Notes under the pieces: model-generated | What the model was told of the DNA's origin: nothing | The model's input: the letters and a program-made list of their open reading frames with translations, nothing else | Databases searched by the model: none | Made by a program: the position numbers and the translations under genes | Part shown: piece after piece, positions 1 through 42,279 of the stretch | Layout: each line of letters starts with the position of its first letter | How positions within the stretch are numbered: position 1 is the stretch's first letter | Source of the DNA: a virus | Taxonomy: Duplodnaviria > Heunggongvirae > Uroviricota > Caudoviricetes | IMG/VR virus record: IMGVR_UViG_2711768019_000013 | DNA length: 43,831 bases | Reading direction: 5' to 3' (one strand)

Positions 1-3000
1 ATACGCTATACCGTTAAAAATAATGGGCGGAATAATAATCTGGCGGTCAAAGTTATGATCATCGCTGATGGTGACTGTAACCGTACCGTCTGGTGTTTCC
101 GTGTTACCCCACGTACCGACTTTTTTCGGGAAGGCTTTTGATACAGCTTTAACGAAATCTCCTCTGACCTGGGTCGCCTCCAGCATGCCCTTAATCGTAC
201 AGTTCTGGTTAATCGTGACATTGTTGAGCGTTCCTGAGTTCGCATTCACACTACCACTGATATCCGCATTTTTAGCGGTCAGCTTTCCGTCTGATGTCAG
301 GGAAAATACCGGAGGACTGCCACCGCTGGTAATGGCGGGGGCTGTCAGGCGCTTCAGGAACACGTCGTTCATGAATATCTGGTTGCCCTGCGCCACAAAC
401 ATCGGCGTTTCATTCCCGTTTGCCGGGTCAATAAACGCGATACGGTTAGCGGCAACCAGAAACTGGCTCAGTTTGCCTTCCTCCGTGTCCTCCATGCTGA
501 GGCCAATACCCGCGACATAATGTTTGCCGTCTTTGGTCTGCTCAATTTTGACGCCCCACATCGCATTCCATTTATCGTTAGCGTCCTTCCACTCTTTCGA
601 AAACTCATCCAGTCTGCTGGCGTTATCCTCCGTCAGATCAACTTTTTCCAGCAGCTCTTTACCGAGATGGGATTCGGTTATCTTGCCTTTGAAAAAATCC
701 AGGTAACCTTCCGCATCATCGCTCGCCCGACCGACGGCCTCCACGAATGCCGATTTGCCAACGGTGTTCACACTGCGGATATAAAAGTAATAATCATGGC
801 CCGGTTTGATATTGATACTGGCGGCTATCCAGTACAGCCCCGCGCCAAGGTAGCGGGCTGTGGTTTCAACCTGCCTGATATCGGTAATCCGCGTTTCCGA
901 GAACCAGAACTCAAACTGTACCGTCGGATCATAAACCGCAAGATGCGGCGTGGCAGTTATCTGAAAATAGCCCGGCGTCAGCTCAATCCGCGACGGTGCT
1001 ACCGGTGCGGCAATCCTGAACGATACCGACGCCGGATCGCCCTGCTGTCCCCAGGCATTTACCGCCCGGACTGTCAGCGTGTACCGTCCCAGCGCCAGTT
1101 GCGTGAAGCGGTATGTGGTTTCCGTCGTCCGGGCCGTGCTGACCAGCCGCTCACTGCCGTCATCCGCTGCCACGGTCAGGCGAAGCATAAAGCTCACCCC
1201 CTTCACCACCTTCGGCGTGTCCCAGCGCGCCAGCACCTGATATTCCCCGCTGTCTGCGGTGACTTCGGCAGTCAGGTGCTGCACCGCTGGCGGCGTGACA
1301 CCATTCACCGTGCCGCTCTGGTCGCCGTCAAAGTGCGCCCCGTTATCCACGATGGCTTCTTTTTCCGGTACATGCTGCACGGCAGTGATGGCATACGTGC
1401 CGTCATCGTTCTCACGGATACTCACACAGCGGAACAGGCGCTGGCGCAACGTCGGCAGCTTCAGCCCCCACACGCTGTATTCAGCAACGCCGTCAGGAAC
1501 ACGGCTCACTTTCACCTTCACGCCGTCGGTGACGGACTGAACCTCCACGCTGACCGGATTGCCACTTCCGTCAACCAGGCTTATCAGCATGGTACCGGAG
1601 GATGGCAGCGTGATTTCACGGTCGAGCGTCAGCGTCCGGGTCTGGCTGTTTACCGCCAGCACGCGCCCGCCGATGCTGATACCCGCATAGTCATCATCAC
1701 AGATTTCAATGACATCGCCCGGCACATGGCGAAGCCCTTCTGCGCCCACGCTGAAGTCCACGGTCTGCGTTTCCAGCAGTTCTGTTTTAATCAGCCACAG
1801 CCCGGCGCGGTGTGCCTGCCNNNNNNNNNNNNNNNNNNNNNNNNNNNNNNNNNNNNNNNNNNNNNNNNNNNNNNNNNNNNNNNNNNNNNNNNNNNNNNNN
1901 NNNNNNNNNNNNNNNNNNNNNNNNNNNNNNNNNNNNNNNNNNNNNNNNNNNNNNNNNNNNNNNNNNNNNNNNNNNNNNNNNNNNNNNNNNNNNNNNNNNN
2001 NNNNNNNNNNNNNNNNNNNNNNNNNNNNNNNNNNNNNNNNNNNNNNNNNNNNNNNNNNNNNNNNNNNNNNNNNNNNNNNNNNNNNNNNNNNNNNNNNNNN
2101 NNNNNNNNNNNNNNNNNNNNNNNNNNNNNNNNNNNNNNNNNNNNNNNNNNNNNNNNNNNNNNNNNNNNNATACAGCGCATCGCCGAGCAGAAATCACTGA
2201 GCACATCCCACGCCTTGCGCTGTGTGGTCAGGTACGCATTACAGGTGATGCGCGGCTCCGTGCCGCCAAAGCCGTCCGGCACTGACTGGTCGCAGTACTG
2301 GCCGATGACATACAGCGCCCATTTGTCCACATCCGCCGCACCAAGACGTTTCCCCATGCCGTAGCGCGGGTGGGTCAGCATATCCCACAGACACCAGGCC
2401 ATGTTGTTGCTGTATGCTGGTTTTAACGTTCCGTCCCAGATACCGCTGTATTGTCGCGTCTGCGGGTTATAGTTCGACGGCACCTGCAGAATGCGCCCGC
2501 GAAGATGATAATTACGACTCACCTGCTGGCTGCCGAACTGCTCCGAGTCCACCTGTACGCCGACCAGTGCAGTGTTCGGGTAGCACTGTTTCACATCGAT
2601 GATTTCGGTGTATGACGACCAGAGCGTTTTGTTCTGCAGCTGGTCTGTGGTGCTGTCCGGTGTCATCCTGCGCATCCGGATACTGAACGGGCGCGGAGGC
2701 AGGTTATCCACCACCACCGAGACCAGATACTGCGAGGTGGTTTTGCCCTTAATGGTGATGTCTTTTTCCGTCACCCAGCCACCGTTACGCTGTATCTGAA
2801 CCAGCAGGCGGACTTCCGACGGATTCCTGTCTCCCTTTGAGGTGGTTTCCACCAGTGCCTGTACACCGAAGGTAAAGCGCAGACGGTCGATGTTTGCCGA
2901 CGTGATGGTCCGGGTGATCGGCGTGTCATATTTCACTTCCGTACCCAGCACCGTCTCGGAGCCGGAGGATTCAAATCCCTCCGGCGGTGACTGCTCCTGC

Positions 3001-3275: not shown

Positions 3276-3928
3276 TCAGCGACCAATCACCACAACCTGA
3301 CCACCATCCCCTTCGTCTGCCGTGCTGATCTCCTGAGAAACCACACGTGACCCCACGCGCATTTCCCCGTACNNNNNNNNNNNNNNNNNNNNNNNNNNNN
3401 NNNNNNNNNNNNNNNNNNNNNNNNNNNNNNNNNNNNNNNNNNNNNNNNNNNNNNNNNNNNNNNNNNNNNNNNNNNNNNNNNNNNNNNNNNNNNNNNNNNN
3501 NNNNNNNNNNNNNNNNNNNNNNNNNNNNNNNNNNNNNNNNNNNNNNNNNNNNNNNNNNNNNNNNNNNNNNNNNNNNNNNNNNNNNNNNNNNNNNNNNNNN
3601 NNNNNNNNNNNNNNNNNNNNNNCACACCGCCACTTTTGGCACCCGCCAGACGCGGAACGATGTGGATCACGGCACCATTTGCCAGCGGTTCATTAAGACG
3701 GGCAGATAATTCATTTTCGCCTGCATCACGCCCGGCAATGCGCACCTGATACCAGCCGTCGCTCAGTTTCTGACGAAATGCCGGGAGCTGTGTGGCCAGT
3801 GCCCGGATGGCTTCGGCCCCCGTTTTCACACGAAGGTCGATGCGGCGGCCAAATCGCTGCAAATCCCCGTAAAGGCAGATGCGTGCCATGCCCGGTGACG
3901 CCAGAGGGAGTGTGTGCGTCGCTGCCAT
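3276..3928 (-). CDS. I: Tail assembly protein I (lambda gpI-like); interrupted by gap 3373-3622
   Basis: N-terminus MAATHTLPLASPGMARICLYGDLQRFGRRIDLRVKTGAEAIRALATQLPAFRQKL...; minus-strand translation of 3276-3372 gives ...YGEMRVGSRVVSQEISTADEGDGGQVVVIGR then TGA (3276-3278), the gpI C-terminus. Track end 3287 is a frame artefact of the gap. Confidence 0.8.
3373..3622. other. Assembly gap (250 N) inside I
   Basis: Run of n characters. Confidence 0.99.
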
Positions 3929-5611: not shown

Positions 5612-8600
5612 TTAACATTCCCCCATCACGTCGCATATTTAACAGATTGCCCTGCACCCGCTGATCAACCATCCCCATAAGTGCTTTTATTGCCTGAGGG
5701 CCAATCTCTCCATTCTGGCCGTCATTTTGAATAGTGATTTGGTATACAGGGGCATAGGTAATATCTCCGCCTCCATTACCACTTTTACTATTAATAGCTC
5801 TGACACCAAGAGAACCATCGGAAGTTCGTGTTAATGGCATAATGGCTTCCGGTCCAGCCTCACCAAAAACACCAGCCCCTTTTGCAAAAGCAAAAAATTG
5901 CGGGGAATCATAAATACCGTTCGAATACGTGCTCAATGACGGAGACTCATAAACACCGCCCTTTGCATTCGGAATAAATTTACTAATAGCACTCCCGATA
6001 GTTCCTAAAATCCCCCCAGAAGAACTGTTACTAATGCTGTCGAAAATCCCAGTAATTGAAGCCTTTAATGCTATTCGACTAAGATCCGAAATCACGGAAG
6101 TAGCGAAAGAACGAAAATTTGCCTTGCCTGTCGTGACAAAATCACCCAGCGCATCGGTCATCCCATCAAACATCTGAGTCGTGGTTGATTTTATCTGCTC
6201 ACTGATATCCTTAGTGTCATCCAGCCAGTTATTGAATCCCTGGGAGGCACCACTAACCCAGTCTCCTGCCTGAATATCGAGCTGCTCGTTTTTCTGTCTG
6301 ACAATTTCTTTTTCCCGTTCCAGAGCATCATTCAGAGCCTGCATTTTCTCTTGAAAAACATGATCTGACATTCCACGGGATTTATCTGCATAGTCACGTT
6401 CAAGTTGCAGACGCTGATTGTTATATCCATGTTCAATCCGCAGTAATTCCTGCTGGCGTTGCTGATTTTTATCGCCAACCCCATAACCAGCAATCTGAAT
6501 ATCATACCCCTGCTGACGATTATCAATCGAAGCCTGCAATGAATCACGCCATGCTGTTATTTCGGCGGATTCCTTGATTAGCCTGTTATTTTTTTCAATC
6601 GCAACATTTTTCTCCATCAACGTGGTTATTTCTTCCCGGTGTAAGAGAAGCGATTTCTGATCCTGGGTTAATTTCGATGATGGTCGTGACTCTAGGTCGG
6701 CAATCCGCTGACGCCACTTAACCAGTTCCTGTTCAGAGGAACTTAATTTAACGGTCAACTCAGCTTGTGAACTTAGTAACGCATTCTGTTGATTCAGATG
6801 ATCAATCATTCGTTGGGCTGCATCATCAGAATAACCTTTCGCCTTTGGTTGCTTTGGATCTTTATAACGCTCATTTATTTGAGCGATAAGATTATTATAT
6901 TCTTCCTTTGAATACTGATTCTTTAGCTTTTCCAGTTTTGCAAGTTCACTAGCTCTCTGCTGCTCCCGGGTCTGATATTGTTTTGAAAAGGCATCTGCTC
7001 TCTGTCTGAGTTCAATTCCTTCCTGTTGTCGCTTGTTGTAATCGTTTATTGATGAATTTAGTACGTCCTGAGCAATTTTTTCTGCTTGAAGTACGCCCAA
7101 TTGCTGCTTTAATCGTGCCAGCCTTTTATTTTGAGCTCCGCCATCTCCAATGCCACCTAACCCGAAAACTCCGGGTCGGGTATTTTTTTCTATTTCATCA
7201 ATTTGACGGAGAACATCTGAGATTTTTTGATCAAGGGAGGCCTCACGGCCAATATCCAGCATGGAATCCCATGCCCATTTTGCGGAGTCTGCGACAGCTT
7301 TCCATGCAGTCTCAAGATAACCAAGATTTTCTTTAATCTGGTTGGTGCGCTGGATCATTGAGGATGAGTATTCTTCTGTCGCAATGCGGGCGGCCTCCTG
7401 CTGGTTCCCTTCATCCTGTAGCGCCTTAATCTGGTTATAAGTCGCAAGTGTCAGAAAATGGTACTGATCATTAAGTTTTGATATGGCACTGACAGGATCC
7501 TTTGCAATTTCATTGAAGTCATTAACCAGTTGTTCGGTTGATATTCCTGTTACTTCGCTCGTTTTTACTATCGCTGTCGTCACTTGCTCCAGCGAACTGC
7601 TCGCTACCTTTCCCGAACGCACAAGCTGATTTAATACTGCCGCCGCAGCACCAGTTGTCGAATCAGCCGCATTCCCGGCACGTTGAGCTATATCGCCCAA
7701 TTGCCCGCTGGTTGTCCCCAACTGATTTCCGGTAAGAATAAGAGATTTATTAAATTCGTCCTGCTCCTGAGAGCCTTTATAGTAAGCCAGTCCTAAGACC
7801 CCAACGGCTGCTGCGGCCAGGGTAAAAGGATTAATTAATCCCAGCACATAAGAACCTACACCTTTGATCGCCGGGCCAATCCCACCGAACATATCTTTTA
7901 GCTGGCCGCCCTGCTGCATTAACACCATAAATGGCGACTGACCAGTGGACAACCCAACAACAATATCCGTCATTTGTACAGGCAACATGCGCATAGCAAA
8001 AGCCGTTTGTTTTGCCGACATTCCGGTTTTGCTTAATTGTGATTGAGTAACCTCAAGCTCACTCCGCATAGCACGAAGTTTTCCAGAAAGCTCCTCATAC
8101 ATTTCAGGAGAAAGCATCCCCTTAGCTTTTGCTTCATTGAGCTGTTTCTGTTGTTCTACCAGACGATTAAAAGCAGTTCCGACAGGATCAAGTTGAGCAA
8201 TCAGACGTTGCAAAGCAACAACCTGTTCATCATGCGCTTTTGCTGCTTCTCGCTCTGCCTGAGCCTCTCCGGTAAGCTCTCGCCGTGTTTCCTGTATTTT
8301 TCGGCTATAATTCTCAAACTGAGAACCATTTATTTTCCCGGATGCAAACGCAGCATTAAGTTCATCATGCTGTTGTTCAAGATTTCTTAGCGCCGCAGCC
8401 AGAGGGTCGATCTTGTCCAGCATTCTTTGAAAGGCCTGAGCCTGCGCTTCCTGCTGGGCGGCAGCAAGTTTTCCGGCCTTCTCGGCTTCTCTCTGCGCTT
8501 GCGCAACCCCGCTCAATTCCTCTGTGGTTTCATTAAGTTTACGGACAAGAAATTCATATTCTTCTTTATCAATAAGCCCTTTATCGAAAAATTTCTTTAA

Positions 8601-8837
8601 TTCAGAATAGCGTCGACCGACAGTATCAATTGCGGCACCAACTGGATCAATAGCTGCTTTTAATTTTGCGAGCGCGTTCTTCTCATCTTCTGTTGCCTTA
8701 GTCACTTTCCCTGCGCTATTTGCAGCAGTTTCCCCAGCCTGCGTCATTTTGACTAATGAGGAGGTCAGATTGTCAGCATTATTTTTCGCTCCAGTGCTAT
8801 CAATAATTATTGCGAGACGCGAGGTTTGCTCTGCCAT
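5604..8837 (-). CDS. H: Tail tape measure protein (1077 aa)
   Basis: Long coiled-coil-rich ORF with A/Q/E/K repeats and a hydrophobic central segment, downstream of the G/T chaperone pair. Confidence 0.85.
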
Positions 8838-9002
8838 TTATTAAAACTCCTGACAACAAAAAACCCACCGCGAAGTGGGTTTCAGGCGACATAATAGTAG
8901 ATATAGCGATTACGAGGCCACGCAATGCTTTTCTCCAGGAGCATCATCGATTTAATTAAAGACACCATCACATCTCTGTAACAGAGTGTACGTAATTAAC
9001 AA

Positions 9003-25605: not shown

Positions 25606-26194
25606 TTTTCCTCACATATGTCATATAGTAAAGGATTATATATACCGTTGTTTTGGACGCTCAAACAGCGAATCAGATCAAATAAAACGCACATTTGTTA
25701 ACATTTACACAAAGTCTGCGTGGGATATTCTGAAAGAATATCCATAATGTGGAGAGAATCTATTGAAGTGCATGGTGCCGGGTGCCTCCCGGTGAACAAA
25801 ATGTTCGTGATACCTGTCGGCGACAGAAAAGGTTAATGGTATCACCCCACCGCACAGGGGGATTCACCATGCAGGAGTTTTCTTAGCAAACTCACTGCGC
25901 GCCCGGCAACTCCCAACCACATAAAATGCGGAGTTTGTGGCATTTATGCATATAACTCGCAGGAATTATCTTAAAAAACTGATGTCGATCCGGATTAAAA
26001 AGAAGCAGGTCATCATCAGATGACTGGAAAAAAGGAAAACAAAAAATACTCATCATACAGTTTTGATTGCAGGGATGAGCCTGCTATGCACAATATGCAG
26101 AATATAAGCAAGATAAAAATATGCAGGCATATTATTTCGGATCTTGTTATTAACACAACCTTTTTAATAATCATTTGGCATACAATAAACCAGC

Positions 26195-27479: not shown

Positions 27480-28078
27480 TACGCAAACTCCAGTAGTTGT
27501 GCGGCCACATTTTCAACTTCCTCCTGAGAGGAGAATTTACGGAACAGAATCCAGTTCCACAGCACATTCAGTACAGATTTATAAACCTGCTGAAACTCGA
27601 CTTCGTCCATATTCGCAAAAGCGATGGATTTTGCCCGACGCCCACGGCTACCGTCCGGATAAATATGCTCGGTGTAAAATCCGGCCTGAATGGTTACCCA
27701 CTCGCGGAAAGCCTCAAACGACTTTAGCAACGCCGTATCCCGGGTTCTACGAGTCGCAACGGTGTTAAGGTATTGCTCTGCGGCATCACTCAGGGCTGGC
27801 GTGTGTTCCCGACCAACTGATTCGCACAGGTAATCAACGAAACCAGACAGCAGTTCTCGTTCGCGAGGCGTGATCGCCCCACCGACCGGAGTCCAGTAAT
27901 CGAATCCCAGTTGCAGGAGTTTGAAAAAACGCTTGTGGAATGCGTAGTTACGCACACGCTTAAAGTCTGCGTGTATCCACTCACCTATTTTGATTTGATG
28001 CAGAAAATCGCAACTCTCCGGCGTCGCCGGGAGAAGTAAACCAGAAGAGGTTTGTTTGACCAGTTGTATATGCGCCAT
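27479..28078 (-). CDS. YbcN-like (DUF1367) nin-region protein
   Basis: 199 aa, MAHIQLVKQTSSGLLLPATPESCDFLHQIKIGEWIHADFKRVRNYAFHKRFFKLL...; synteny with the DLP12-type ybcN-ybcO-Q arrangement. Confidence 0.5.
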   Translation of the reverse strand: MAHIQLVKQTSSGLLLPATPESCDFLHQIKIGEWIHADFKRVRNYAFHKRFFKLLQLGFDYWTPVGGAITPRERELLSGFVDYLCESVGREHTPALSDAAEQYLNTVATRRTRDTALLKSFEAFREWVTIQAGFYTEHIYPDGSRGRRAKSIAFANMDEVEFQQVYKSVLNVLWNWILFRKFSSQEEVENVAAQLLEFA

Positions 28079-28358
28079 TTCTCAATCTCTCGATGGCGCA
28101 GCGCAGCAGATGCCAGTTGTTCAGGCTGACGAATAAAGTATAAATAAACTGGCTATGGTGTAAAGCCCCACATAGCATGAACAAACACTACATATCAAAT
28201 AGCTGGTACAAGGATAGAAATACGACACTTATTATTAAAAACGATTAGATAAATTACATTTTAATGTTATGCAAAAGTTCTTTTTTATCATAACATTTCA
28301 ATAAAAGCATTACAGATGCAATCATCCCGTCATCATCAATTATTTAAGGTGGTTAAAC

Positions 28359-28445
28359 ATGGAAAATAACAAGTTCGCACATCTCGCTCCTTTTTTATCC
28401 GTAATCCTTTTCGCTTGTTGTTTTATATGGGCATTATTTTTATAA
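28359..28445 (+). CDS. Small hydrophobic peptide (28 aa), candidate membrane peptide
   Basis: AAGGTGG Shine-Dalgarno 7 nt before ATG 28359; my translation MENNKFAHLAPFLSVILFACCFIWALFL then TAA 28443-28445; single predicted transmembrane helix; AT-rich island. Confidence 0.3.
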   Translation: MENNKFAHLAPFLSVILFACCFIWALFL

Positions 28446-28853
28446 AGTAGCCACATGATAAGTTGCTGGAATCATATTTCCCACTCAAGTCATTAACATT
28501 TGATAAGATATATCTAAAAGGACGCCTTTACATTATTTATGCGTATATAATTTATTTATATACACAGTAAAGGTATCCTGGGAAAATATTTATCGTTAAA
28601 AAATACATCATAAATAATTAAGCTGAAATTTCAGAACACAACTAATACACACAATAAGGTTCAGTAACAGTAATCTATGTGGACTACATCGAGATTTTTT
28701 GATTAAACTTTAATAACTTATTCCTAACACACAGAATGCATAAACTAAAAGTAAAACAAATAGTTATACGAAAAACAACCATATTTATTCTATCTTCTCC
28801 TCTAATCAACATATCAATTATGTGTTTCATAACAGCTTGACATAACCCTCCAA

Positions 28854-28876
28854 AAGATGCATTTTTAATGCATGTT
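28854..28876 (+). promoter_or_regulatory. NsrR-like operator (11-1-11 inverted repeat) upstream of the YeaR-like gene
   Basis: AAGATGCATTT-T-TAATGCATGTT; the left half is identical to the NsrR half-site as I remember the consensus (AAGATGCATTT), the right half matches in 9 of 11 positions; TTGACA at 28837-28842. Confidence 0.5.
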
Positions 28877-28891
28877 TTGGAGGAGGTGGTT

Positions 28892-29230
28892 ATGACACAC
28901 AAGAGAATTCCTAAAGATTGGGTAATCAAACGCTCAACTCCGTTCTTCACAAAAGAGAACGTACCTTCAGCGTTATTAACACATCATAATACAGCAGCAG
29001 GTGTTTTTGGGCAGTTGTGCGTAATGGAAGGCACTGTAACATATTATGGTTTTACTGATGAGAATGCTACTGAACCGGAGATAAAAGTAGTCATTAATGC
29101 TGGCGCTTTTGCAACAAGCCCACCACAATACTGGCACCGTGTTGAACTAAGCGATGATGCTCAGTTTAATATTAACTTTTGGGTCGCTCCAGACTTTTCG
29201 GGCGAAAAAGTCTATAGCACCAAAAAATAG
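28892..29230 (+). CDS. YeaR-like DUF1971 protein (112 aa)
   Basis: GGAGGAGGTGG Shine-Dalgarno before ATG 28892; KRSTPFFTKENVP...CVMEGTVTYYGFTDENATEPE...FNINFWVAPD follows the YeaR pattern as I remember it. Confidence 0.6.
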   Translation: MTHKRIPKDWVIKRSTPFFTKENVPSALLTHHNTAAGVFGQLCVMEGTVTYYGFTDENATEPEIKVVINAGAFATSPPQYWHRVELSDDAQFNINFWVAPDFSGEKVYSTKK

Positions 29231-29257
29231 ATGATCATATTAAAAATGCTTTAACAG

Positions 29258-29296
29258 TCAGACCCGGCAGGGCTATCCCCGACGGGTCTCATTTTT
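29258..29296 (+). terminator. Rho-independent terminator after the YeaR-like gene
   Basis: GC-rich imperfect hairpin gacccggcaggg...ccccgacgggtc followed by TCATTTTTG. Confidence 0.55.
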
Positions 29297-29850
29297 GTAA
29301 ATATATTGGTTCTACATTGACAGGAGACTTCAACCATAAGAAGTAATCTGAATACTTGAGCAATAAATTTACTTAAGATTAATGAGCGCACCTTGCCGGA
29401 CAAAGATAAACCAAGGTAACACCTTTTTTCTAGCCAGTATGTAATCAATCAGAAAGCCGCTCCATAAGAACAACAGCAAGACAATAAATTGCCATTACAG
29501 CCGCAATAGCCAGCGCACATTTGAGAACCAGCACGACAACCCCCTGTATTAGACGCACACCAGTCCTGATAAATATGAGGCTGTCTCGTCAGTGATTCAA
29601 TACAACTATTGGGTATAGTTTCTGTGATTTTATTCTGTAGAAATGGAACACAACAACCAGTCACCACCAGCACTTCCTTAAATGCTCTAAGTCAGAAACA
29701 AGCCAACATTTTAGTCCGCTTTGAGCGATCTGCAGACATTGCTAGCAGCCTTCTGTGTGAATTCTCAGGGAGCAGGTCGGCATAGCATCACGTTGAGGCT
29801 CTTACCCTACTTGTTCACACCAACCCTAACTCCACAGACTGATTCATAAA

Positions 29851-30852
29851 TTAGTAATCTGCGTGTTTCGCACTTTTCAGAAATGCTTTCATATTTTCAT
29901 TAGGTCGCTCAATTTCGAAGTTACTTCCATATAACTCTTGTAATTTTGGCCATAACTTACTTAATAACCCTCTCCTGCGATAAAATGGATGTATCCAAAC
30001 GGTAGATAGGTACGGAGAATTTGCATTTGAATTGTTTATTGTGACCAGCCCAACTAAACATTGTCGATAACCACTATTATCCATTGATTGTATTTCTTCG
30101 ACGAATGGATACGCGATTACATCAGTCCAACCATGATCGGTTGTATCCCATTGCATTCCGTCATGACATTCCTTCGACTGATAGCGGCGTAAAGCTACAC
30201 ACGCGAGCTTTTGCCAATCTGGAGAATTAATTGTGATCTCTTCATCGTATGACGCGCCTATTGGAGCGGGTATTGGTCTGATTAATCCAGCATGGCATTC
30301 ATCATAGAACTTCATGTTTCCCTCAGAAACGTTGTGTACGTTGGGTTGCTCCATGTGTGCGCCATTCAAAAATAGCTCTGATAGTAGTGTATCTACACTG
30401 TAATCTTTATTGATTATTGTCGGCTTAGAGTTTTTCTTATTAAGGCCGCGAGTAACGATTTTTTGATCAATGTTAACAACATGGAATAATCCGTCGGGGA
30501 GGCTAGCGAACCACGATGGGGCATCGGACCAGAATAGCATGCCTTTTGTACTTCTTAAGAGTTTAATTAAGTTAATACAAGCTTCTTCACTAGTCTTGCC
30601 GTTGATGCGAAGTATGTTAGGACTAAAGTAATATTCATCCATATCAGGGAATGCAGCTTCGCAAAACTCCTGTACATAATTTAGCACCTGGATTCTACAG
30701 AGATCATCATAGCTGGTAATAACTAAGGGGGTATCTTCATTACTATTATGATTATCAATAATGCAATCTATAGCGAGACTTACTGCTTTGCGTATCACTT
30801 CAGTTGAATCTAACGACTCTAAAAATTTTGTCTTTCGTGTGCGAATATCCAT
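29851..30852 (-). CDS. Hypothetical protein (333 aa), second gene of an AT-rich two-gene operon; C-terminal region weakly GNAT acetyltransferase-like
   Basis: Start ATG 30852 lies 15 nt after the ORF A stop; C-terminal ...CLVGLVTINNSNANSPYLSTVWIHPFYRRRGLLSKLWPKL... resembles GNAT motif A (compare RimI FQRRGLG); N-terminal 200 aa unrecognised; low GC. Confidence 0.55.
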   Translation of the reverse strand: MDIRTRKTKFLESLDSTEVIRKAVSLAIDCIIDNHNSNEDTPLVITSYDDLCRIQVLNYVQEFCEAAFPDMDEYYFSPNILRINGKTSEEACINLIKLLRSTKGMLFWSDAPSWFASLPDGLFHVVNIDQKIVTRGLNKKNSKPTIINKDYSVDTLLSELFLNGAHMEQPNVHNVSEGNMKFYDECHAGLIRPIPAPIGASYDEEITINSPDWQKLACVALRRYQSKECHDGMQWDTTDHGWTDVIAYPFVEEIQSMDNSGYRQCLVGLVTINNSNANSPYLSTVWIHPFYRRRGLLSKLWPKLQELYGSNFEIERPNENMKAFLKSAKHADY

Positions 30853-30867
30853 GTATGACCTGCGCTA

Positions 30868-31890
30868 TTAAAATTCATGAATGAACGGTTTGTCATCTGG
30901 TTGCAAAATGGTGGTTTTATTCGTTGCTACATTTAAACTGTTGTAGAGCATAATTGCCAGGTTCGATGCATTTTCAATCAGCGTTTCAAGATCCTGGTCT
31001 GTAATCACTACGAGGTTCCCTTCTTTATCCTTTCCACCACGATGCACTAAGTGATTTCGATTGAGGGTTGCCAATTCAATAGCTTCTATCGGACAGTCTT
31101 TTTGTACTTTTATATCGAATGTAGCTTCATAGCGGTCGATTACCTTTTTAGTGCTATGCCAGCTTGCACTGATCAAGTGTTCCTTGATTGACCTGATTAG
31201 CTCTCCCCTAATTTTCTCGATGGGTTCACCCTTGAAAGGCAACGCAGCAATATCTTTGCTTACTTTAAATTCAGTCTTACCTTTTTCTATACAATTGGCT
31301 ATGTAGACATCATCTTTCTCTATAGAATTAATGAATAGCTCAACATAAAGCGTTTCCAAAGCTGTAATAACATTCGTGTAGAGCAAACTAAGCAAGTGGT
31401 TTTTTTGCTGTTGTTCAGTTTTATCTTTTGCAAGTTTTTTTATTTTATCGATATTATCAATGAATTTTAAATACGGATTACCGGAAGACGTTACAGCGTC
31501 GTAGATATCATCATCGTACCAATCATCTATATTATTTGAGTTTCCAGACCAGTCAAAACATTGTGTTTGTAATTCATCTACTAATTCCTCAATATACTCA
31601 GATTTAACATATTGACCGAAGATGGATTGTAGTTCTTCGCTCGCATCATACGGCCCGCCATATATGTAAGCATAGCCACCTTCTCTACTTTCATACGGAC
31701 AAGCATTTGCCGGATCTTCAAAGTTTTCAAAGAACCAGTTTTTCATTACTTCGAGTTGATCTTTTTTGCTTATGTATTTTAAAGATTTTAGTGGAACTTT
31801 CTTTCCATTAACCTCGAAAACAATTTTCACGATGTAACGCTCCCTTGTATCAATTGCGCAACTATTATACCACAGCGAAATACAGGGCAT
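30868..31890 (-). CDS. Hypothetical protein (340 aa), first gene of the AT-rich two-gene operon; C-terminal R-x4-H (HEPN-like) motif
   Basis: Strong AAGGAGG Shine-Dalgarno 6 nt before ATG 31890 (MPCISLWYNSC...); C-terminal ...ATLNRNHLVHRGG... fits the Rx4-6H pattern; no family recognised by eye; low GC. Confidence 0.55.
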   Translation of the reverse strand: MPCISLWYNSCAIDTRERYIVKIVFEVNGKKVPLKSLKYISKKDQLEVMKNWFFENFEDPANACPYESREGGYAYIYGGPYDASEELQSIFGQYVKSEYIEELVDELQTQCFDWSGNSNNIDDWYDDDIYDAVTSSGNPYLKFIDNIDKIKKLAKDKTEQQQKNHLLSLLYTNVITALETLYVELFINSIEKDDVYIANCIEKGKTEFKVSKDIAALPFKGEPIEKIRGELIRSIKEHLISASWHSTKKVIDRYEATFDIKVQKDCPIEAIELATLNRNHLVHRGGKDKEGNLVVITDQDLETLIENASNLAIMLYNSLNVATNKTTILQPDDKPFIHEF

Positions 31891-31928
31891 AACCTGCCTC
31901 CTTAAACTAACATACCATGAGCCAGCAA

Positions 31929-31954
31929 TGTCCGCTATTGGCACAAAGCGGACA
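31929..31954. promoter_or_regulatory. Perfect 8-10-8 inverted repeat (TGTCCGCT-N10-AGCGGACA) upstream of ORF A; candidate operator
   Basis: Plus-strand tgtccgct attggcacaa agcggaca at 31929-31954, about 40 nt upstream of the ORF A start on the minus strand; not followed by a U-run, so not a terminator. Confidence 0.4.
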
Positions 31955-32028
31955 ACCACGCTAGCTCTCCCCTGTGCCAGAAAAATGTCAATTTACATAT
32001 GAACTAATGCTCTTTGATCTAGTAACGT

Positions 32029-32445
32029 CTATAAATACCGAAGATTTCCTTGATAAAATGCCAGTACACGTTTCATAACTTCACTCTTCCGGCACTCGCG
32101 ACAGATTATGTTCTGACGCCTGTCATAGCGGCGTATTTCTCCGTCTGGTAATGACCAGATAAGGTCAGGATCAACCACAACCGTTTTTTTCACCTTTGCC
32201 CTGGATAGTTTTTTGCGGGCGTTTTTCCAATCCTTACGAGCCTGTTCAGACGGGAATAACCCATAGCCAGAGTTGTATACATCGCCACTGGCAACCAACT
32301 CTCTGGCAAGAATGCTCATCAGATATCTTGTCGCACCTGTCTTGGCCTCCAGTTGCCTTAACGTCTCGCGCCCACTCTGGCGTACCAACTCAACAACCTG
32401 CTCCTTAATTTTTTCACGCTCTTCCTGTGTAAAAACTTTTGCCAT
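32029..32445 (-). CDS. Hypothetical protein with predicted winged-HTH-like N-terminus and CxxC motif (139 aa from MAKVF)
   Basis: GGAGGCG then ATG 32445; ...ETLRQLEAKTGATRYLMSILARELVASGDV... helix-turn-helix-like; ...ICRECRK...; normal GC unlike the downstream island. Confidence 0.45.
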   Translation of the reverse strand: MAKVFTQEEREKIKEQVVELVRQSGRETLRQLEAKTGATRYLMSILARELVASGDVYNSGYGLFPSEQARKDWKNARKKLSRAKVKKTVVVDPDLIWSLPDGEIRRYDRRQNIICRECRKSEVMKRVLAFYQGNLRYL

Positions 32446-32460
32446 AAGCGCCTCCGGCAA

Positions 32461-33244: not shown

Positions 33245-34036
33245 TTACTTCTCAATTCCTGGCTGGACGACATTCGGACGCCAGCTCTCCCAGTTAAAAT
33301 TCACCCATCGCCNNNNNNNNNNNNNNNNNNNNNNNNNNNNNNNNNNNNNNNNNNNNNNNNNNNNNNNNNNNNNNNNNNNNNNNNNNNNNNNNNNNNNNNN
33401 NNNNNNNNNNNNNNNNNNNNNNNNNNNNNNNNNNNNNNNNNNNNNNNNNNNNNNNNNNNNNNNNNNNNNNNNNNNNNNNNNNNNNNNNNNNNNNNNNNNN
33501 NNNNNNNNNNNNNNNNNNNNNNNNNNNNNNNNNNNNNNNNNNNNNNNNNNNNNNNNNNNNNNNNNNNNNNNNNNNNNNNNNNNNNNNNNNNNNNNNNNNN
33601 NNNNNNNNNNNNNNNNNNNNNNNNNNNNNNNNNNNNNNNNNNNNNNNNNNNNNNNNNNNNNNNNNNNNNNNNNGATAGCTGCCGCTAAGTGGTTCTTCCC
33701 GGTACCAGGTTTTCCGCTGAACGCAAAATTTGTACACCCGGTCATCAGTTCATCAGCGATGGATTTCGCCTGACTCAACGCGTATCGCTGCGCTTCGTTC
33801 TGCACCTGGTAATTCGAAAACGAGCATTTGCGGTGCAATGGCTGGATGCCAGAGCGATTCAGAATTTTTTCCACCCGCAACTGACGATTCTGACGGTTGA
33901 TCTCCTCACAACGTTTCTGGCCTTCGGAAAGTTGCCACTCGCGCCACTCCGCTACCGTCTTGAATGGCGCGGTTACATGTGACGGGGCCAGTCTGCGGAT
34001 ACGTTCAAGAACGTCGCCTGTCGCAATATTTTTCAT
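33245..34036 (-). CDS. DnaC-like replication protein (AAA+ helicase loader, lambda P analogue); interrupted by gap 33313-33673
   Basis: Walker [17 protein letters not shown] just before the gap; N-terminal ...[40 protein letters not shown]... typical of DnaC-family N-domains; follows the O-like gene. Confidence 0.65.
33313..33673. other. Assembly gap (361 N) inside the DnaC-like gene
   Basis: Run of n characters. Confidence 0.99.
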
Positions 34037-42090: not shown

Positions 42091-42279
42091 ATGTATAAAA
42101 TTACCGCCACTATTGAAAAGGAAGGTGGCACTCCTACTAACTGGACAAGATATTCAAAATCTAAACTAACGAAATCAGAATGCGAAAAAATGCTCTCAGG
42201 TAAAAAAGAAGCAGGCGTTTCCAGAGAGCAGAAAGTAAAACTGATAAATTTTAATTGCGAGAAACTTCAGTCCTCGTGA
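42091..42279 (+). CDS. YdaC-like small protein (62 aa from MYKITATIEKEGG)
   Basis: Track ORF 42019-42279; the internal ATG 42091 overlaps the ralR reading-frame end; an alternative ATG at 42079 (MEVFMYKIT) is possible. Confidence 0.5.
   Translation: MYKITATIEKEGGTPTNWTRYSKSKLTKSECEKMLSGKKEAGVSREQKVKLINFNCEKLQSS

What the first reader, a model, noticed from the sequence alone, without database searches (positions are those of the whole stretch)
29851..31890. AT-rich two-gene operon of unknown function in the nin-region cargo hotspot: candidate novel defence or toxin module
Two tightly linked minus-strand genes (ORF A 30868-31890, 340 aa; ORF B 29851-30852, 333 aa; 15-nt spacer) sit between the replication genes and the nin/Q genes, a known accessory hotspot in lambdoid phages. 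Both are visibly more AT-rich than flanking phage genes, and I recall no counterpart in the K-12 Rac element. Neither matches a family I recognise. ORF A has a C-terminal R-x4-H motif (ATLNRNHLVHRGG) compatible with a HEPN-type RNase. ORF B has a C-terminal stretch (VWIHPFYRRRGLLSKL after a CLVGLVTIN strand) resembling GNAT motif A. Large N-terminal regions are unassigned in both. A HEPN-like plus GNAT-like pairing would suggest an abortive-infection or toxin-antitoxin-like mechanism, but both motifs are short and could be chance.
Basis: partly seen in the sequence, partly recalled or inferred. Interest (0 to 1): 0.85.

Follow-up and report, generated by a model that had tools for sequence, protein, structure and literature searches.

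The report
Known prophage defence operon DS-33
This two-gene cassette in a Rac-like E. coli prophage encodes a HEPN ribonuclease and a GNAT-fold protein; it is the anti-phage system published in 2026 as DS-33, so it is real but not new, although the role of its second gene is still open.

Summary
Two minus-strand genes 15 nt apart form a low-GC cassette of about 2.2 kb in a variable cargo slot of a Rac-like prophage. ORF A is a HEPN/RES-NTD1 domain plus a HEPN RNase domain with an invariant R-x4-H motif. ORF B is a family-specific N-domain plus a GNAT fold.

It is not novel. ORF A is 100% identical, and ORF B 332/333 identical, to DS-33A and DS-33B of DeWeirdt et al. (DefensePredictor, Science 2026, PMC13092281). 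In that paper's tables the operon cuts plating of T7, T3, Bas67 and Bas26 by 10^2 to 10^5. Deleting the HEPN gene or mutating R258 abolishes defence. Deleting the GNAT gene does not.

What I add:
- Each gene occurs alone in most lineages; the pairing is a recent enterobacterial combination that is co-inherited under purifying selection.
- The published DS-33B allele carries L289 at a proline that is invariant in the family. All 209 complete E. coli genomes that hold the gene have P289, so the role of the GNAT gene has not really been tested.
- ORF A most likely starts at GTG 31830, not ATG 31890, behind a conserved extended -10 promoter.
- The same slot holds CBASS and other defence genes in other strains.

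The parts
29729..31925 (-). Exchangeable cargo cassette that holds only ORF A and ORF B
   Evidence: Homology to E. coli prophages with other cargo ends at window 29728-29747 on one side and resumes at 31926-31931 on the other. GC of 29729-32028 is 0.389.
30868..31830 (-). ORF A = DS-33A (WP_014639476.1), 320 aa, GTG start; HEPN/RES-NTD1 plus HEPN RNase
   Evidence: 100% identical to the protein tested in PMC13092281 Table S8. Alignment; start-codon analysis.
31555..31755 (-). HEPN/RES N-terminal domain 1 (residues 26-92 of ORF A), the presumed sensor or regulatory module
   Evidence: Pfam PF18870 scores 22.2 bits for the window protein (below the 27.4 cut-off), but 48 of 49 family members match. 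Invariant residues are M29 W32 F33 P40 P45 G51 G52 G58 G59 P60. The domain is also found fused to a PIN_8 nuclease.
30907..31413 (-). HEPN domain of ORF A (about residues 140-308)
31039..31059 (-). Catalytic R-x4-H motif RNHLVHR (R258-R264)
   Evidence: R258, H263 and R264 are invariant in 49 sequences. Coordinates verified. The published R258A mutant loses defence.
29851..30852 (-). ORF B = DS-33B homologue (WP_000354966.1), 333 aa
   Evidence: It matches the tested WP_000354965.1 at 332 of 333 residues; the only difference is P289 here against L289 in the tested allele.
30241..30852 (-). N-terminal alpha/beta domain of ORF B (residues 1-204), specific to this family
   Evidence: phmmer of residues 1-205 against 1.84 billion representative proteins gave only 21 matches. 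Full-length ones are about 330-346 aa and the rest mostly fragments, with one repetitive 570-aa exception. No Pfam assignment.
29854..30240 (-). GNAT-fold core of ORF B (about residues 205-333)
29968..29997 (-). GNAT motif A, WIHPFYRRRG (residues 286-295); the P289 codon CCA lies at 29986-29988
   Evidence: W286, H288, P289 and R292 are invariant in 44 of 44 sequences. P289 is present in 45 of 45 loci and in 209 of 209 complete E. coli genomes that carry the gene, with none carrying L289.
31864..31872 (-). Candidate extended -10 promoter element TGgTATAAT inside the cassette (inferred)
   Evidence: Read from the sequence. It is kept as TGgTAyAAT in most paired loci from other taxa, and degenerate (TTGTAAAAT, CGGTATAAT, TGATACAAT) in three of them. 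It ends 33 nt upstream of the GTG start.
31840..31846 (-). Shine-Dalgarno sequence AAGGGAG for the GTG 31830 start
   Evidence: conserved as AAGGAGG or AAGGGAG in most homologous leaders and degenerate (AATGGAG, AATGAGG) in L008 and L104.
30853..30867 (-). 15-nt A-B spacer (TAGCGCAGGTCATAC)
   Evidence: The spacing is the same in 20 of 21 scorable paired loci, 14 nt in L098.
32029..32460 (-). Flanking DUF977 phage gene (conserved right flank; not part of the system)
29430..29728 (.). Conserved spacer of about 300 bp that forms the left flank of the cassette
   Evidence: 89-91% identical to the segment upstream of hokD in prophages with other cargo.

Best explanation
The region is the anti-phage system DS-33, carried as a self-contained cargo cassette (a 'moron') in a variable slot of a Rac-like lambdoid prophage.

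ORF A is the effector. It is a HEPN ribonuclease whose composite R-x4-H active site needs R258. I infer that it is held inactive until infection and is controlled through its N-terminal HEPN/RES-NTD1 domain. Once activated it probably cleaves cellular or phage RNA and stops phage production, in an abortive-infection-like or translation-shut-off manner. ORF A alone is sufficient for defence against the phages tested.

ORF B is a GNAT-fold acyl-CoA-type transferase with a family-specific N-domain. It is co-transcribed with A and co-inherited with it, but it is not an antitoxin and is not needed for A to work. Most likely it is an autonomous accessory activity joined recently to A, either a second defence or a modulator.

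Shown by others: the defence phenotype, the need for the HEPN gene and for R258, and the dispensability of the tested GNAT allele. Shown here: identity to DS-33, the folds, the invariant residues, the independence of the two gene families, the cassette borders and the allele difference. Inferred: RNase activity, the sensor role of NTD1, the promoter, and any role of B.
For: **Identity to DS-33.** ORF A is identical to DS-33A and ORF B matches DS-33B at 332 of 333 residues. The transcription unit has the same 1980-bp layout.

**Published plaque data** (PMC13092281, Tables S6 and S7), as -log10 EOP:
- First screen: T7 3.0, T3 3.5, Bas67 2.3, Bas26 4.7.
- Retest, wild type: T7 3.8, T3 3.3, Bas67 4, Bas26 5.
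- HEPN gene deleted: -0.5 to 0.5.
- R258A: T7 0.78, T5 0.37.
- GNAT gene deleted: T7 4.8, T3 3.3, Bas67 4, Bas26 5.

**GNAT evidence.**

**The two genes are independent.**
- Of 54 species-level genome loci with a full-length A and room downstream, only 2 have B.
- 13 of 36 B-anchored metagenome loci lack A.
- No recurrent neighbour was found for either gene.

**The pair is kept by selection.** A and B diverge together, with dN/dS of 0.12-0.21 for A and 0.19-0.42 for B.

**Defence context.**
- The same slot holds a type I CBASS (cyclase plus 2TM effector), a SMEK-domain gene (a SMEK-domain protein was validated as DS-27 in the same paper) and others.
- A alone lies next to prophage portal and terminase genes in Yersinia alsatica.
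- B alone lies next to a XamI restriction enzyme, a HigBA pair, or AAA_13 and T5orf172 genes.
Against: - No biochemical RNase assay, RNA target or phage trigger is known for this protein.
- The window protein itself scores below the curated Pfam cut-offs for PF18870 and PF00583 and does not reach PF18735. The assignments rest on family-level matches and predicted structures.
- PADLOC-DB v2.0.0 (2023), which predates DS-33, gives no meaningful match.
- The claim that B is dispensable comes from single spot-titre measurements with an allele that carries L at the invariant P289. B could still matter for A in the wild-type cassette.
- The promoter is inferred from the sequence only, and expression in a lysogen has not been shown.
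Confidence: 0.85

Rival explanations
1. Functional partnership hidden by an allele artefact. With its native P289, ORF B acetylates or otherwise regulates ORF A, its RNA substrate or a phage factor. It would thereby tune, gate or broaden HEPN-based defence. The published 'GNAT deletion has no effect' result would then arise because the tested DS-33B was already crippled by P289L.
For: - The tested allele has L289. P289 is invariant in 44 of 44 family members, 45 of 45 loci and 209 of 209 complete E. coli genomes.
- From general knowledge of GNATs, P289 is the proline at the end of strand beta-4 in motif A, next to the CoA pyrophosphate-binding loop.
- The pair is co-inherited with fixed 15-nt spacing and both genes are under purifying selection.
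- The GNAT deletion gave 10-fold more protection against T7 and T5.
Against: - A works without B and is a solo gene in 52 of 54 species-level loci.
- B also occurs alone.
- The effect of P289L on activity is unknown.
- A 10-fold difference is one dilution step in a spot assay.
Confidence: 0.3
2. Toxin-antitoxin module. The HEPN protein is a constitutively toxic RNase and the GNAT protein is its antitoxin, by analogy with AMPylation of HEPN by MNT. Alternatively the GNAT is a TacT- or AtaT-like toxin that acetylates tRNA.
For: - HEPN toxins of HEPN-MNT systems are among the best structural matches (5yep, 7ae2, 8xdj).
- The operon is tight.
- GNAT toxins exist (general knowledge).
Against: - The GNAT-deletion strain is viable and still defends, even though the tested B allele was possibly already impaired.
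- The HEPN-deletion strain is also viable.
- A is a solo gene in most lineages with no conserved neighbour.
- There is no MNT or RHH partner gene.
- B is 333 aa with a large extra domain, unlike GNAT toxins of about 175 aa.
Confidence: 0.05
3. The two genes are ordinary phage accessory genes (for lysogenic conversion or the phage's own life cycle), and the plasmid phenotype is an over-expression artefact.
For: - The cassette lies in the nin-like region, where many non-defence accessory genes occur.
- The published assays used plasmids.
Against: - The system was cloned with its native upstream region on a low-copy plasmid.
- Protection is phage-specific and is lost with a single catalytic substitution.
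- Homologues of A are widespread outside phages.
- The slot holds bona fide defence systems in other strains.
Confidence: 0.05

Closest known systems
DS-33 (working name 'GNAT'), DeWeirdt et al., DefensePredictor, Science 2026 (PMC13092281)
   Same: It is the same system. DS-33A is 100% identical to ORF A and DS-33B is 332/333 identical to ORF B. Gene order and the 15-nt spacer are the same. It is a validated anti-phage system that needs the HEPN gene and R258.
   Different: The window carries the consensus P289 in the GNAT motif A, while the tested clone has L289. DS-33 is not discussed in the paper's main text, and no mechanism, target or trigger is reported.
PD-T4-2 (Vassallo et al. 2022): DUF262/ParB-like protein plus RiboL-PSP-HEPN protein
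   Same: This is the nearest validated defence relative of the HEPN domain of ORF A, by the paper's own HHblits search (probability 96.1 over 55% of the protein). It belongs to the same HEPN clade, MAE_28990 / RiboL-PSP.
   Different: There is no DUF262 partner here. ORF A has an NTD1 domain instead and acts alone. The PADLOC profiles gave no PD-T4-2 match at E <= 1.
HEPN/RES-NTD1 + MAE_28990-type HEPN architecture (Anantharaman et al. 2013, PMC3710099)
   Same: This is exactly the domain architecture of ORF A, described computationally in 2013 with a Klebsiella example. NTD1 is shared with other effectors, here also a PIN_8 nuclease.
   Different: The 2013 work made no experimental test and did not note any link with a GNAT gene (0 occurrences of GNAT or acetyltransferase).
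HEPN-MNT type VII toxin-antitoxin systems
   Same: Same HEPN fold and the same R-x4-6-H catalytic logic. These are top structural matches.
   Different: There is no MNT nucleotidyltransferase. The neighbour is a GNAT that can be deleted. ORF A is more than twice as long and carries an N-terminal domain.
Single-protein HEPN abortive-infection and defence proteins (AbiD/AbiF, AbiJ, Tha, DS-11)
   Same: One polypeptide that combines a variable N-terminal sensor or regulatory domain with a C-terminal HEPN nuclease, often carried by prophages.
   Different: The N-terminal domain is different. Sequence similarity is remote only. The trigger is unknown here.
GNAT toxins of GNAT-RHH systems (TacT, AtaT, ItaT, KacT)
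   Same: GNAT fold with the R-x-x-G motif A.
   Different: B is 333 aa with a unique N-domain of about 200 aa. It has no RHH antitoxin and no shown toxicity. Its best Foldseek matches are protein-lysine acetyltransferases (HAT1, MYST, ESCO1), with low TM-scores.

Membership tests
DS-33 (DefensePredictor, 2026) | Protein A identical or nearly identical to WP_014639476.1 | tested here: met
   320 of 320 residues identical.
DS-33 (DefensePredictor, 2026) | Protein B identical or nearly identical to WP_000354965.1, encoded directly downstream in one transcription unit of 1980 bp | tested here: met
   332 of 333 residues identical, the one difference being P289 here against L289 in the tested allele. 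The 15-nt spacer gives 963+15+1002 = 1980 bp, the same as the published cds 6922-8901.
DS-33 (DefensePredictor, 2026) | Reduces plating of phages (T7, T3, Bas67, Bas26) | not testable with these tools
   Published for the reference clone. Not measured for this window's allele.
HEPN superfamily | Conserved R-x4-6-H motif | tested here: met
   RNHLVH is present; R258 and H263 are invariant in 49 homologues.
HEPN superfamily | All-alpha HEPN fold | tested here: met
HEPN superfamily | Metal-independent endoribonuclease activity | not testable with these tools
   Only the loss of defence in the R258A mutant is known.
RiboL-PSP-HEPN / MAE_28990 clade (Pfam PF18735) | Significant match to the family profile | tested here: inconclusive
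   The window protein does not match at E <= 0.01, but 23 of 49 aligned homologues do, best 1e-9. The published HHblits search gives probability 96.1 to a RiboL-PSP-HEPN protein.
HEPN/RES-NTD1 (Pfam PF18870) | Match to the profile at or above the gathering score | tested here: inconclusive
   The window protein scores 22.2 bits against a 27.4 cut-off (E 1.9e-4). 48 of 49 homologues match at E <= 0.01. The architecture agrees with the 2013 description.
GNAT superfamily (Pfam PF00583) | GNAT fold | tested here: met
GNAT superfamily (Pfam PF00583) | Profile match at or above the gathering score | tested here: inconclusive
   19.9 bits against a 20.7 cut-off for the window protein. 27 of 44 homologues match at E <= 0.1, best 6e-6.
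GNAT superfamily (Pfam PF00583) | Motif A, Q/R-x-x-G-x-G/A, for acyl-CoA binding | tested here: inconclusive
   R292-R-R-G295-L-L: R292 is invariant and G295 is present in 36 of 44, but the last G/A position is L. CoA binding cannot be tested here.
PD-T4-2 | DUF262/ParB-like partner gene plus a HEPN gene, recognised by the PADLOC models | tested here: not met
   No PADLOC match to PD-T4-2 models. No DUF262 gene is adjacent.
HEPN-MNT toxin-antitoxin | Adjacent MNT nucleotidyltransferase antitoxin | tested here: not met
   The neighbour is a GNAT-fold protein. Both single-gene deletions are viable in the published work.
GNAT-RHH toxin-antitoxin (TacAT/AtaRT type) | Small GNAT toxin with an adjacent RHH antitoxin | tested here: not met
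   There is no RHH gene. B is 333 aa with a unique N-domain.

The most novel reading that the evidence does not exclude
The GNAT-fold protein with its native P289 is a working partner of the HEPN nuclease. It could be an acyl-CoA-dependent switch that modifies the nuclease, its RNA or aminoacyl-tRNA target, or a phage factor. It would set the threshold, the phage range or the self-tolerance of the prophage. This role was missed in the published work because the cloned allele carries a rare substitution (P289L) at an invariant motif-A residue. That would make DS-33 the first HEPN defence system regulated by a GNAT enzyme.
Probability: 0.3. Interest if true: 0.55.

Novelty: already known. Interest (0 to 1): 0.28.

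Why it matters
For the scan, this finding is a true positive. A reader working from raw sequence picked out a real anti-phage system and named both catalytic folds correctly. It is not a discovery, though: DS-33 was validated and published in 2026.

Three things remain of value.

- The published test of the GNAT gene used an allele mutated at an invariant residue. No complete E. coli genome that carries the gene (0 of 209) has that substitution. The function of the second gene, and any HEPN-GNAT cross-talk, is therefore still open and is cheap to test with this window's allele.
- The two genes are separable modules that were joined recently. This shows how prophage cargo cassettes are assembled.
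- The slot downstream of DUF977 in Rac- and Qin-like prophages is a defined exchange site with sharp borders. It holds CBASS, SMEK, DUF5677, Sll1717-ATPase or DS-33 in different strains, and could be mined for further systems.

Tried and rejected
- **PADLOC-DB v2.0.0** on both proteins gave only noise.
- **NCBIfam** gave nothing useful.
- **Profile searches of A and B against PDB sequences** gave no credible match.
- **megablast of the cassette against 50,697 phage records** matched only the DUF977 flank, although both proteins have their own PHROG families of unknown function.
- **RNA and signal scans.** Rfam (gathering scores on the whole window, E-value mode on 28000-32100) and ARAGORN found no RNA element in the cassette. 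The generic promoter and terminator scan found no more than its shuffled controls.
- **Clustering of all ORFs within 3 kb** of solo A (about 80 loci) and solo B (about 20 loci) found no recurrent partner family.
- **phmmer of the B N-domain** against 1.84 billion representatives found no other architecture, so the N-domain stays unassigned.
- **Foldseek against AFDB50** was not available.
- **Literature.**
  - Searches for HEPN plus GNAT, for the accession numbers and for the PHROG ids in main texts found nothing.
  - The match came only from the supplementary tables of PMC13092281.
  - Brenes & Laub 2025 (Cell Host Microbe) is not held, so I could not check whether it also covers this cassette.
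- **Rejected starts for ORF A.**
  - GTG 31959 lies outside the cassette, in the conserved flank.
  - ATG 31890 is not conserved.
Full report

Yes. The six-frame ORF list shows ORF B at 29851-30852 (minus strand, ATG, 333 aa). It also shows an open frame for ORF A that ends at 30868 and stays open up to 31959. The spacer between the stop of A and the start of B is 15 nt, TAGCGCAGGTCATAC.

GC content is 0.36 for A and 0.39 for B. The flanking phage genes DUF977, DUF1627-like, DUF1367 and DUF1364 have 0.47-0.50, and the whole window has 0.465.

The surroundings are those of a Rac-like lambdoid prophage:
- recE, recT, ralR with its RalA antitoxin RNA, kilR, sieB and ydaT on one side;
- replication genes (ydaU, DnaC-like) just upstream;
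- DUF1367, DUF1364 and DUF1133 (a nin- and Q-like block) plus lysis genes downstream.

K-12 Rac lacks the whole segment: ydaW is followed at once by rzpR, rzoR and trkG.

**2. Where does ORF A start?**

Comparison with relatives argues for GTG 31830 instead:
- Homologues begin at MK[IV]VF.
- The leader upstream of that GTG is conserved across paired loci from other taxa. In most of them it contains TGgTAyAAT, an extended -10 element (window 31872-31864), and an AAGGAGG or AAGGGAG ribosome-binding site 7-9 nt before the GTG; a few have degenerate versions.
- The ATG itself is replaced in five of these loci, and the upstream frame closes after 6-15 codons in several.
- PGAP and the published study both use the 320-aa form.

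The longest possible start, GTG 31959, lies outside the cassette in the conserved flank. I infer that the cassette carries its own promoter. That would let it be expressed from the prophage and from plasmids, but it has not been shown.

**3. What are the two proteins?**

*ORF A.*
- The window protein scores just below the Pfam cut-off for HEPN_RES_NTD1 (22 bits against 27.4).
- In a 49-member alignment reaching 27% identity, 48 members match HEPN_RES_NTD1 and 23 match HEPN_RiboL-PSP, best E 1e-9.
- R258, H263 and R264 of RNHLVHR are invariant, as are E159 and W224-H225. So is a block in the N-domain: M29, W32, F33, P40, P45, G51, G52, G58, G59 and P60.
- This architecture, HEPN/RES-NTD1 fused to a MAE_28990 or RiboL-PSP type HEPN, was described computationally by Anantharaman et al. 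in 2013 (PMC3710099).
- I also find NTD1 joined to a PIN_8 nuclease and to unassigned C-terminal domains in alphaproteobacteria. That fits a regulatory or sensor module shared by different effectors.

*ORF B.*
- The window protein scores 19.9 bits against a 20.7 cut-off for Pfam GNAT. 27 of 44 homologues match.
- Foldseek ranks HAT1, MYST, ESCO1 and SSAT-type enzymes first, but with low TM-scores.
- The GNAT core is roughly residues 205-333. Motif A is WIHPFYRRRG, with W286, H288, P289 and R292 invariant.
- Residues 1-204 form an alpha/beta domain found only in this family. phmmer against 1.84 billion representative proteins returned 21 matches. Full-length ones are about 330-346 aa and most others are fragments, apart from one repetitive 570-aa protein.

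**4. It is already known: DS-33.**

Main-text literature searches found nothing. The supplementary tables of DeWeirdt et al., 'DefensePredictor' (Science 2026; PMC13092281), do contain the accession of ORF A.

- Table S6 lists the transcription unit with working id GNAT and final name DS-33. It comes from an E. coli draft assembly, spans cds 6922-8901, and holds WP_014639476.1 plus WP_000354965.1. It is marked 'defensive = TRUE'.
- The sequences printed in Table S8 are 320/320 identical to ORF A and 332/333 identical to ORF B.

Table S7 gives the following values as -log10 EOP:

| Construct | T7 | T3 | Bas67 | Bas26 | T5 |
|---|---|---|---|---|---|
| Wild type, first screen | 3.0 | 3.5 | 2.3 | 4.7 | not listed |
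| Wild type, retest | 3.8 | 3.3 | 4 | 5 | 0.8 (small plaques) |
| HEPN gene deleted | 0.08 | -0.48 | 0 | 0.52 | 0.54 |
| R258A | 0.78 | not read | not read | not read | 0.37 |
| GNAT gene deleted | 4.8 | 3.3 | 4 | 5 | 1.7 |

Bas26 is a T5-like Markadamsvirinae phage. DS-33 is not discussed in the paper's main text, and no mechanism, target or trigger is given. The paper's own HHblits search names PD-T4-2_B, a RiboL-PSP-HEPN protein, as the nearest known defence protein, at probability 96.1. DefensePredictor log-odds are 9.45 for A and 1.08 for B.

**5. What the comparative analysis adds.**

*(a) The two genes are separable.*
- Among one-genome-per-species loci that encode a full-length A homologue with at least 800 nt downstream, only 2 of 54 have B.
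- Among B-anchored metagenome loci with room upstream, 23 of 36 have A. All 23 have a B at least 73% identical to the window's.
- The other 13 lack A. These are nearly all the distant B homologues (at most 49% identity), plus one at 86%.
- Distant B homologues in Shewanella and Neptunicella, and distant A homologues in Acidobacteriota and others, also stand alone.
- Clustering of all neighbours found no recurrent partner for either gene.
- Solo A lies next to prophage portal and terminase genes in Yersinia alsatica.
- Solo B lies next to a XamI restriction enzyme and a resolvase, a HigBA pair, or AAA_13 and T5orf172/DUF4041 genes.

This agrees with the published genetics, where A is sufficient.

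*(b) Once joined, the pair is kept.* In 21 scorable paired loci the spacer is 15 nt in 20 and 14 nt in L098. The two proteins diverge together, from 100/100% down to 86/78% identity. dN/dS is 0.12-0.21 for A and 0.19-0.42 for B. So B is a selected, working protein.

*(c) The tested B allele is unusual.* It has L289 where the window has P289, a single change from CCA to CTA. P289 is present in all 44 family members, in 45 of 45 loci, and in 209 of 209 complete E. coli genomes that hold this segment. No genome has the L allele. From general knowledge of GNATs, P289 is the motif-A proline at the end of strand beta-4. The result that deleting the GNAT changes nothing may therefore come from a clone in which B was already impaired. 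The effect of P289L itself is not known.

*(d) The cassette and its slot.*
- Homology to E. coli prophages with different cargo stops at window 29728-29747 and resumes at 31926-31931. The exchangeable unit is therefore about 2.2 kb and holds exactly A and B.
- In other strains the same slot, downstream of DUF977 or DUF1627, carries:
  - a type I CBASS, with cyclase at E 2.5e-156 and 2TM effector at 8e-78 in PADLOC;
  - a SMEK-domain gene (a SMEK-domain protein is validated as DS-27 in the same paper) with a methyltransferase;
  - a DUF5677 gene;
  - an Sll1717-family P-loop ATPase.
- The complete module is present in 205 of 5,426 complete E. coli genomes. The 61-nt B segment is in 209.

**6. 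How it most likely works.**

*Shown by others:* the cassette protects against T7, T3, Bas67 and Bas26. The HEPN gene and R258 are needed. The tested GNAT allele is not.

*Shown here:* identity to DS-33, the folds, the invariant residues, the independence of the two families and the defence-hotspot context.

*Inferred:*
- A is a latent HEPN endoribonuclease. Such enzymes usually act as dimers with a composite R-x4-H site (general knowledge).
- Its NTD1 domain senses infection or relieves auto-inhibition.
- Cleavage of host or phage RNA then blocks phage production.
- B is not an antitoxin, because both single-gene deletion strains are viable and A is normally a solo gene.
- B is most simply an autonomous accessory enzyme recruited into the operon.
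- A modulatory role is not excluded, given the P289L caveat and the 10-fold higher protection against T7 and T5 in the deletion. That difference is one dilution step, so it is weak evidence.

**7. Verdict.**

The finding is a correct reading of a real defence system, but the system is already published, so its novelty is nil and its interest is modest. The open points are the function of the GNAT gene, the RNA target and the phage trigger. The window's own allele (P289) is the right reagent for the first of these.

Noticed in passing
window 29986-29988 (codon P289 of ORF B), compared with the published DS-33B: The experimentally tested DS-33B allele (WP_000354965.1) has L at this position. The proline is invariant in the family, and none of the 209 complete E. 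coli genomes that carry the gene has L.
   Followed up: yes
window 28447-29429: A second variable segment lies next to the cassette, separated from it by a conserved 300-bp spacer (29430-29728). It is very AT-rich (GC 0.28-0.30 around 28250-29000). It carries a plus-strand DUF1971/TehB-like ORF (28868-29230). Other prophages have hokD at this place.
   Followed up: partly
window about 31927-31950 (minus strand): The perfect inverted repeat GTCCGC-N12-GCGGAC lies just upstream of the cassette promoter region. It is conserved in most of the paired loci from other taxa that were aligned. It could be an operator or an RNA hairpin; its function is unknown.
   Followed up: no
window 31897-31904 and 31888-31890: A perfect Shine-Dalgarno sequence (TAAGGAGG) plus an ATG opens a 20-codon in-frame extension of ORF A. 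The extension is not conserved in relatives. It overlaps the predicted -35 region, so it could be an alternative start specific to E. coli or a coincidence.
   Followed up: partly
window 42097-42275 (minus strand): RalA antitoxin sRNA of the RalR/RalA type I toxin-antitoxin system of Rac (Rfam RF02694, 225 bits).
   Followed up: no
window 25716-25902 (minus strand): Match to the sRNA family STnc100 (Rfam RF02076, 86.6 bits), near the lysis and Q region.
   Followed up: no
window 1821-2169, 3373-3622, 33313-33673: Three runs of N (masked sequence). The last one interrupts the DnaC-like replication gene just upstream of the region studied.
   Followed up: no
L133 2277-4225; L134 3723-4622; L135 1888-2913; L136 2079-4148: Alternative cargo found in the same prophage slot in other E. 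coli strains. L133 has a type I CBASS (cyclase plus 2TM effector). L134 has a SMEK-domain gene. L135 has a DUF5677 gene and L136 an Sll1717-family P-loop ATPase; these two are untested defence candidates.
   Followed up: partly
L007 (contig labelled as a Collinsella sp. MAG): A 3.3-kb contig in an actinobacterial MAG carries the cassette at 100% identity to E. coli. This is most likely a binning contaminant rather than a real occurrence.
   Followed up: no
P0196 (570 aa): One representative protein matches a 40-residue piece of the B N-domain (residues 160-200) in 10 separate stretches, so it is a repetitive protein. I did not examine it.
   Followed up: no
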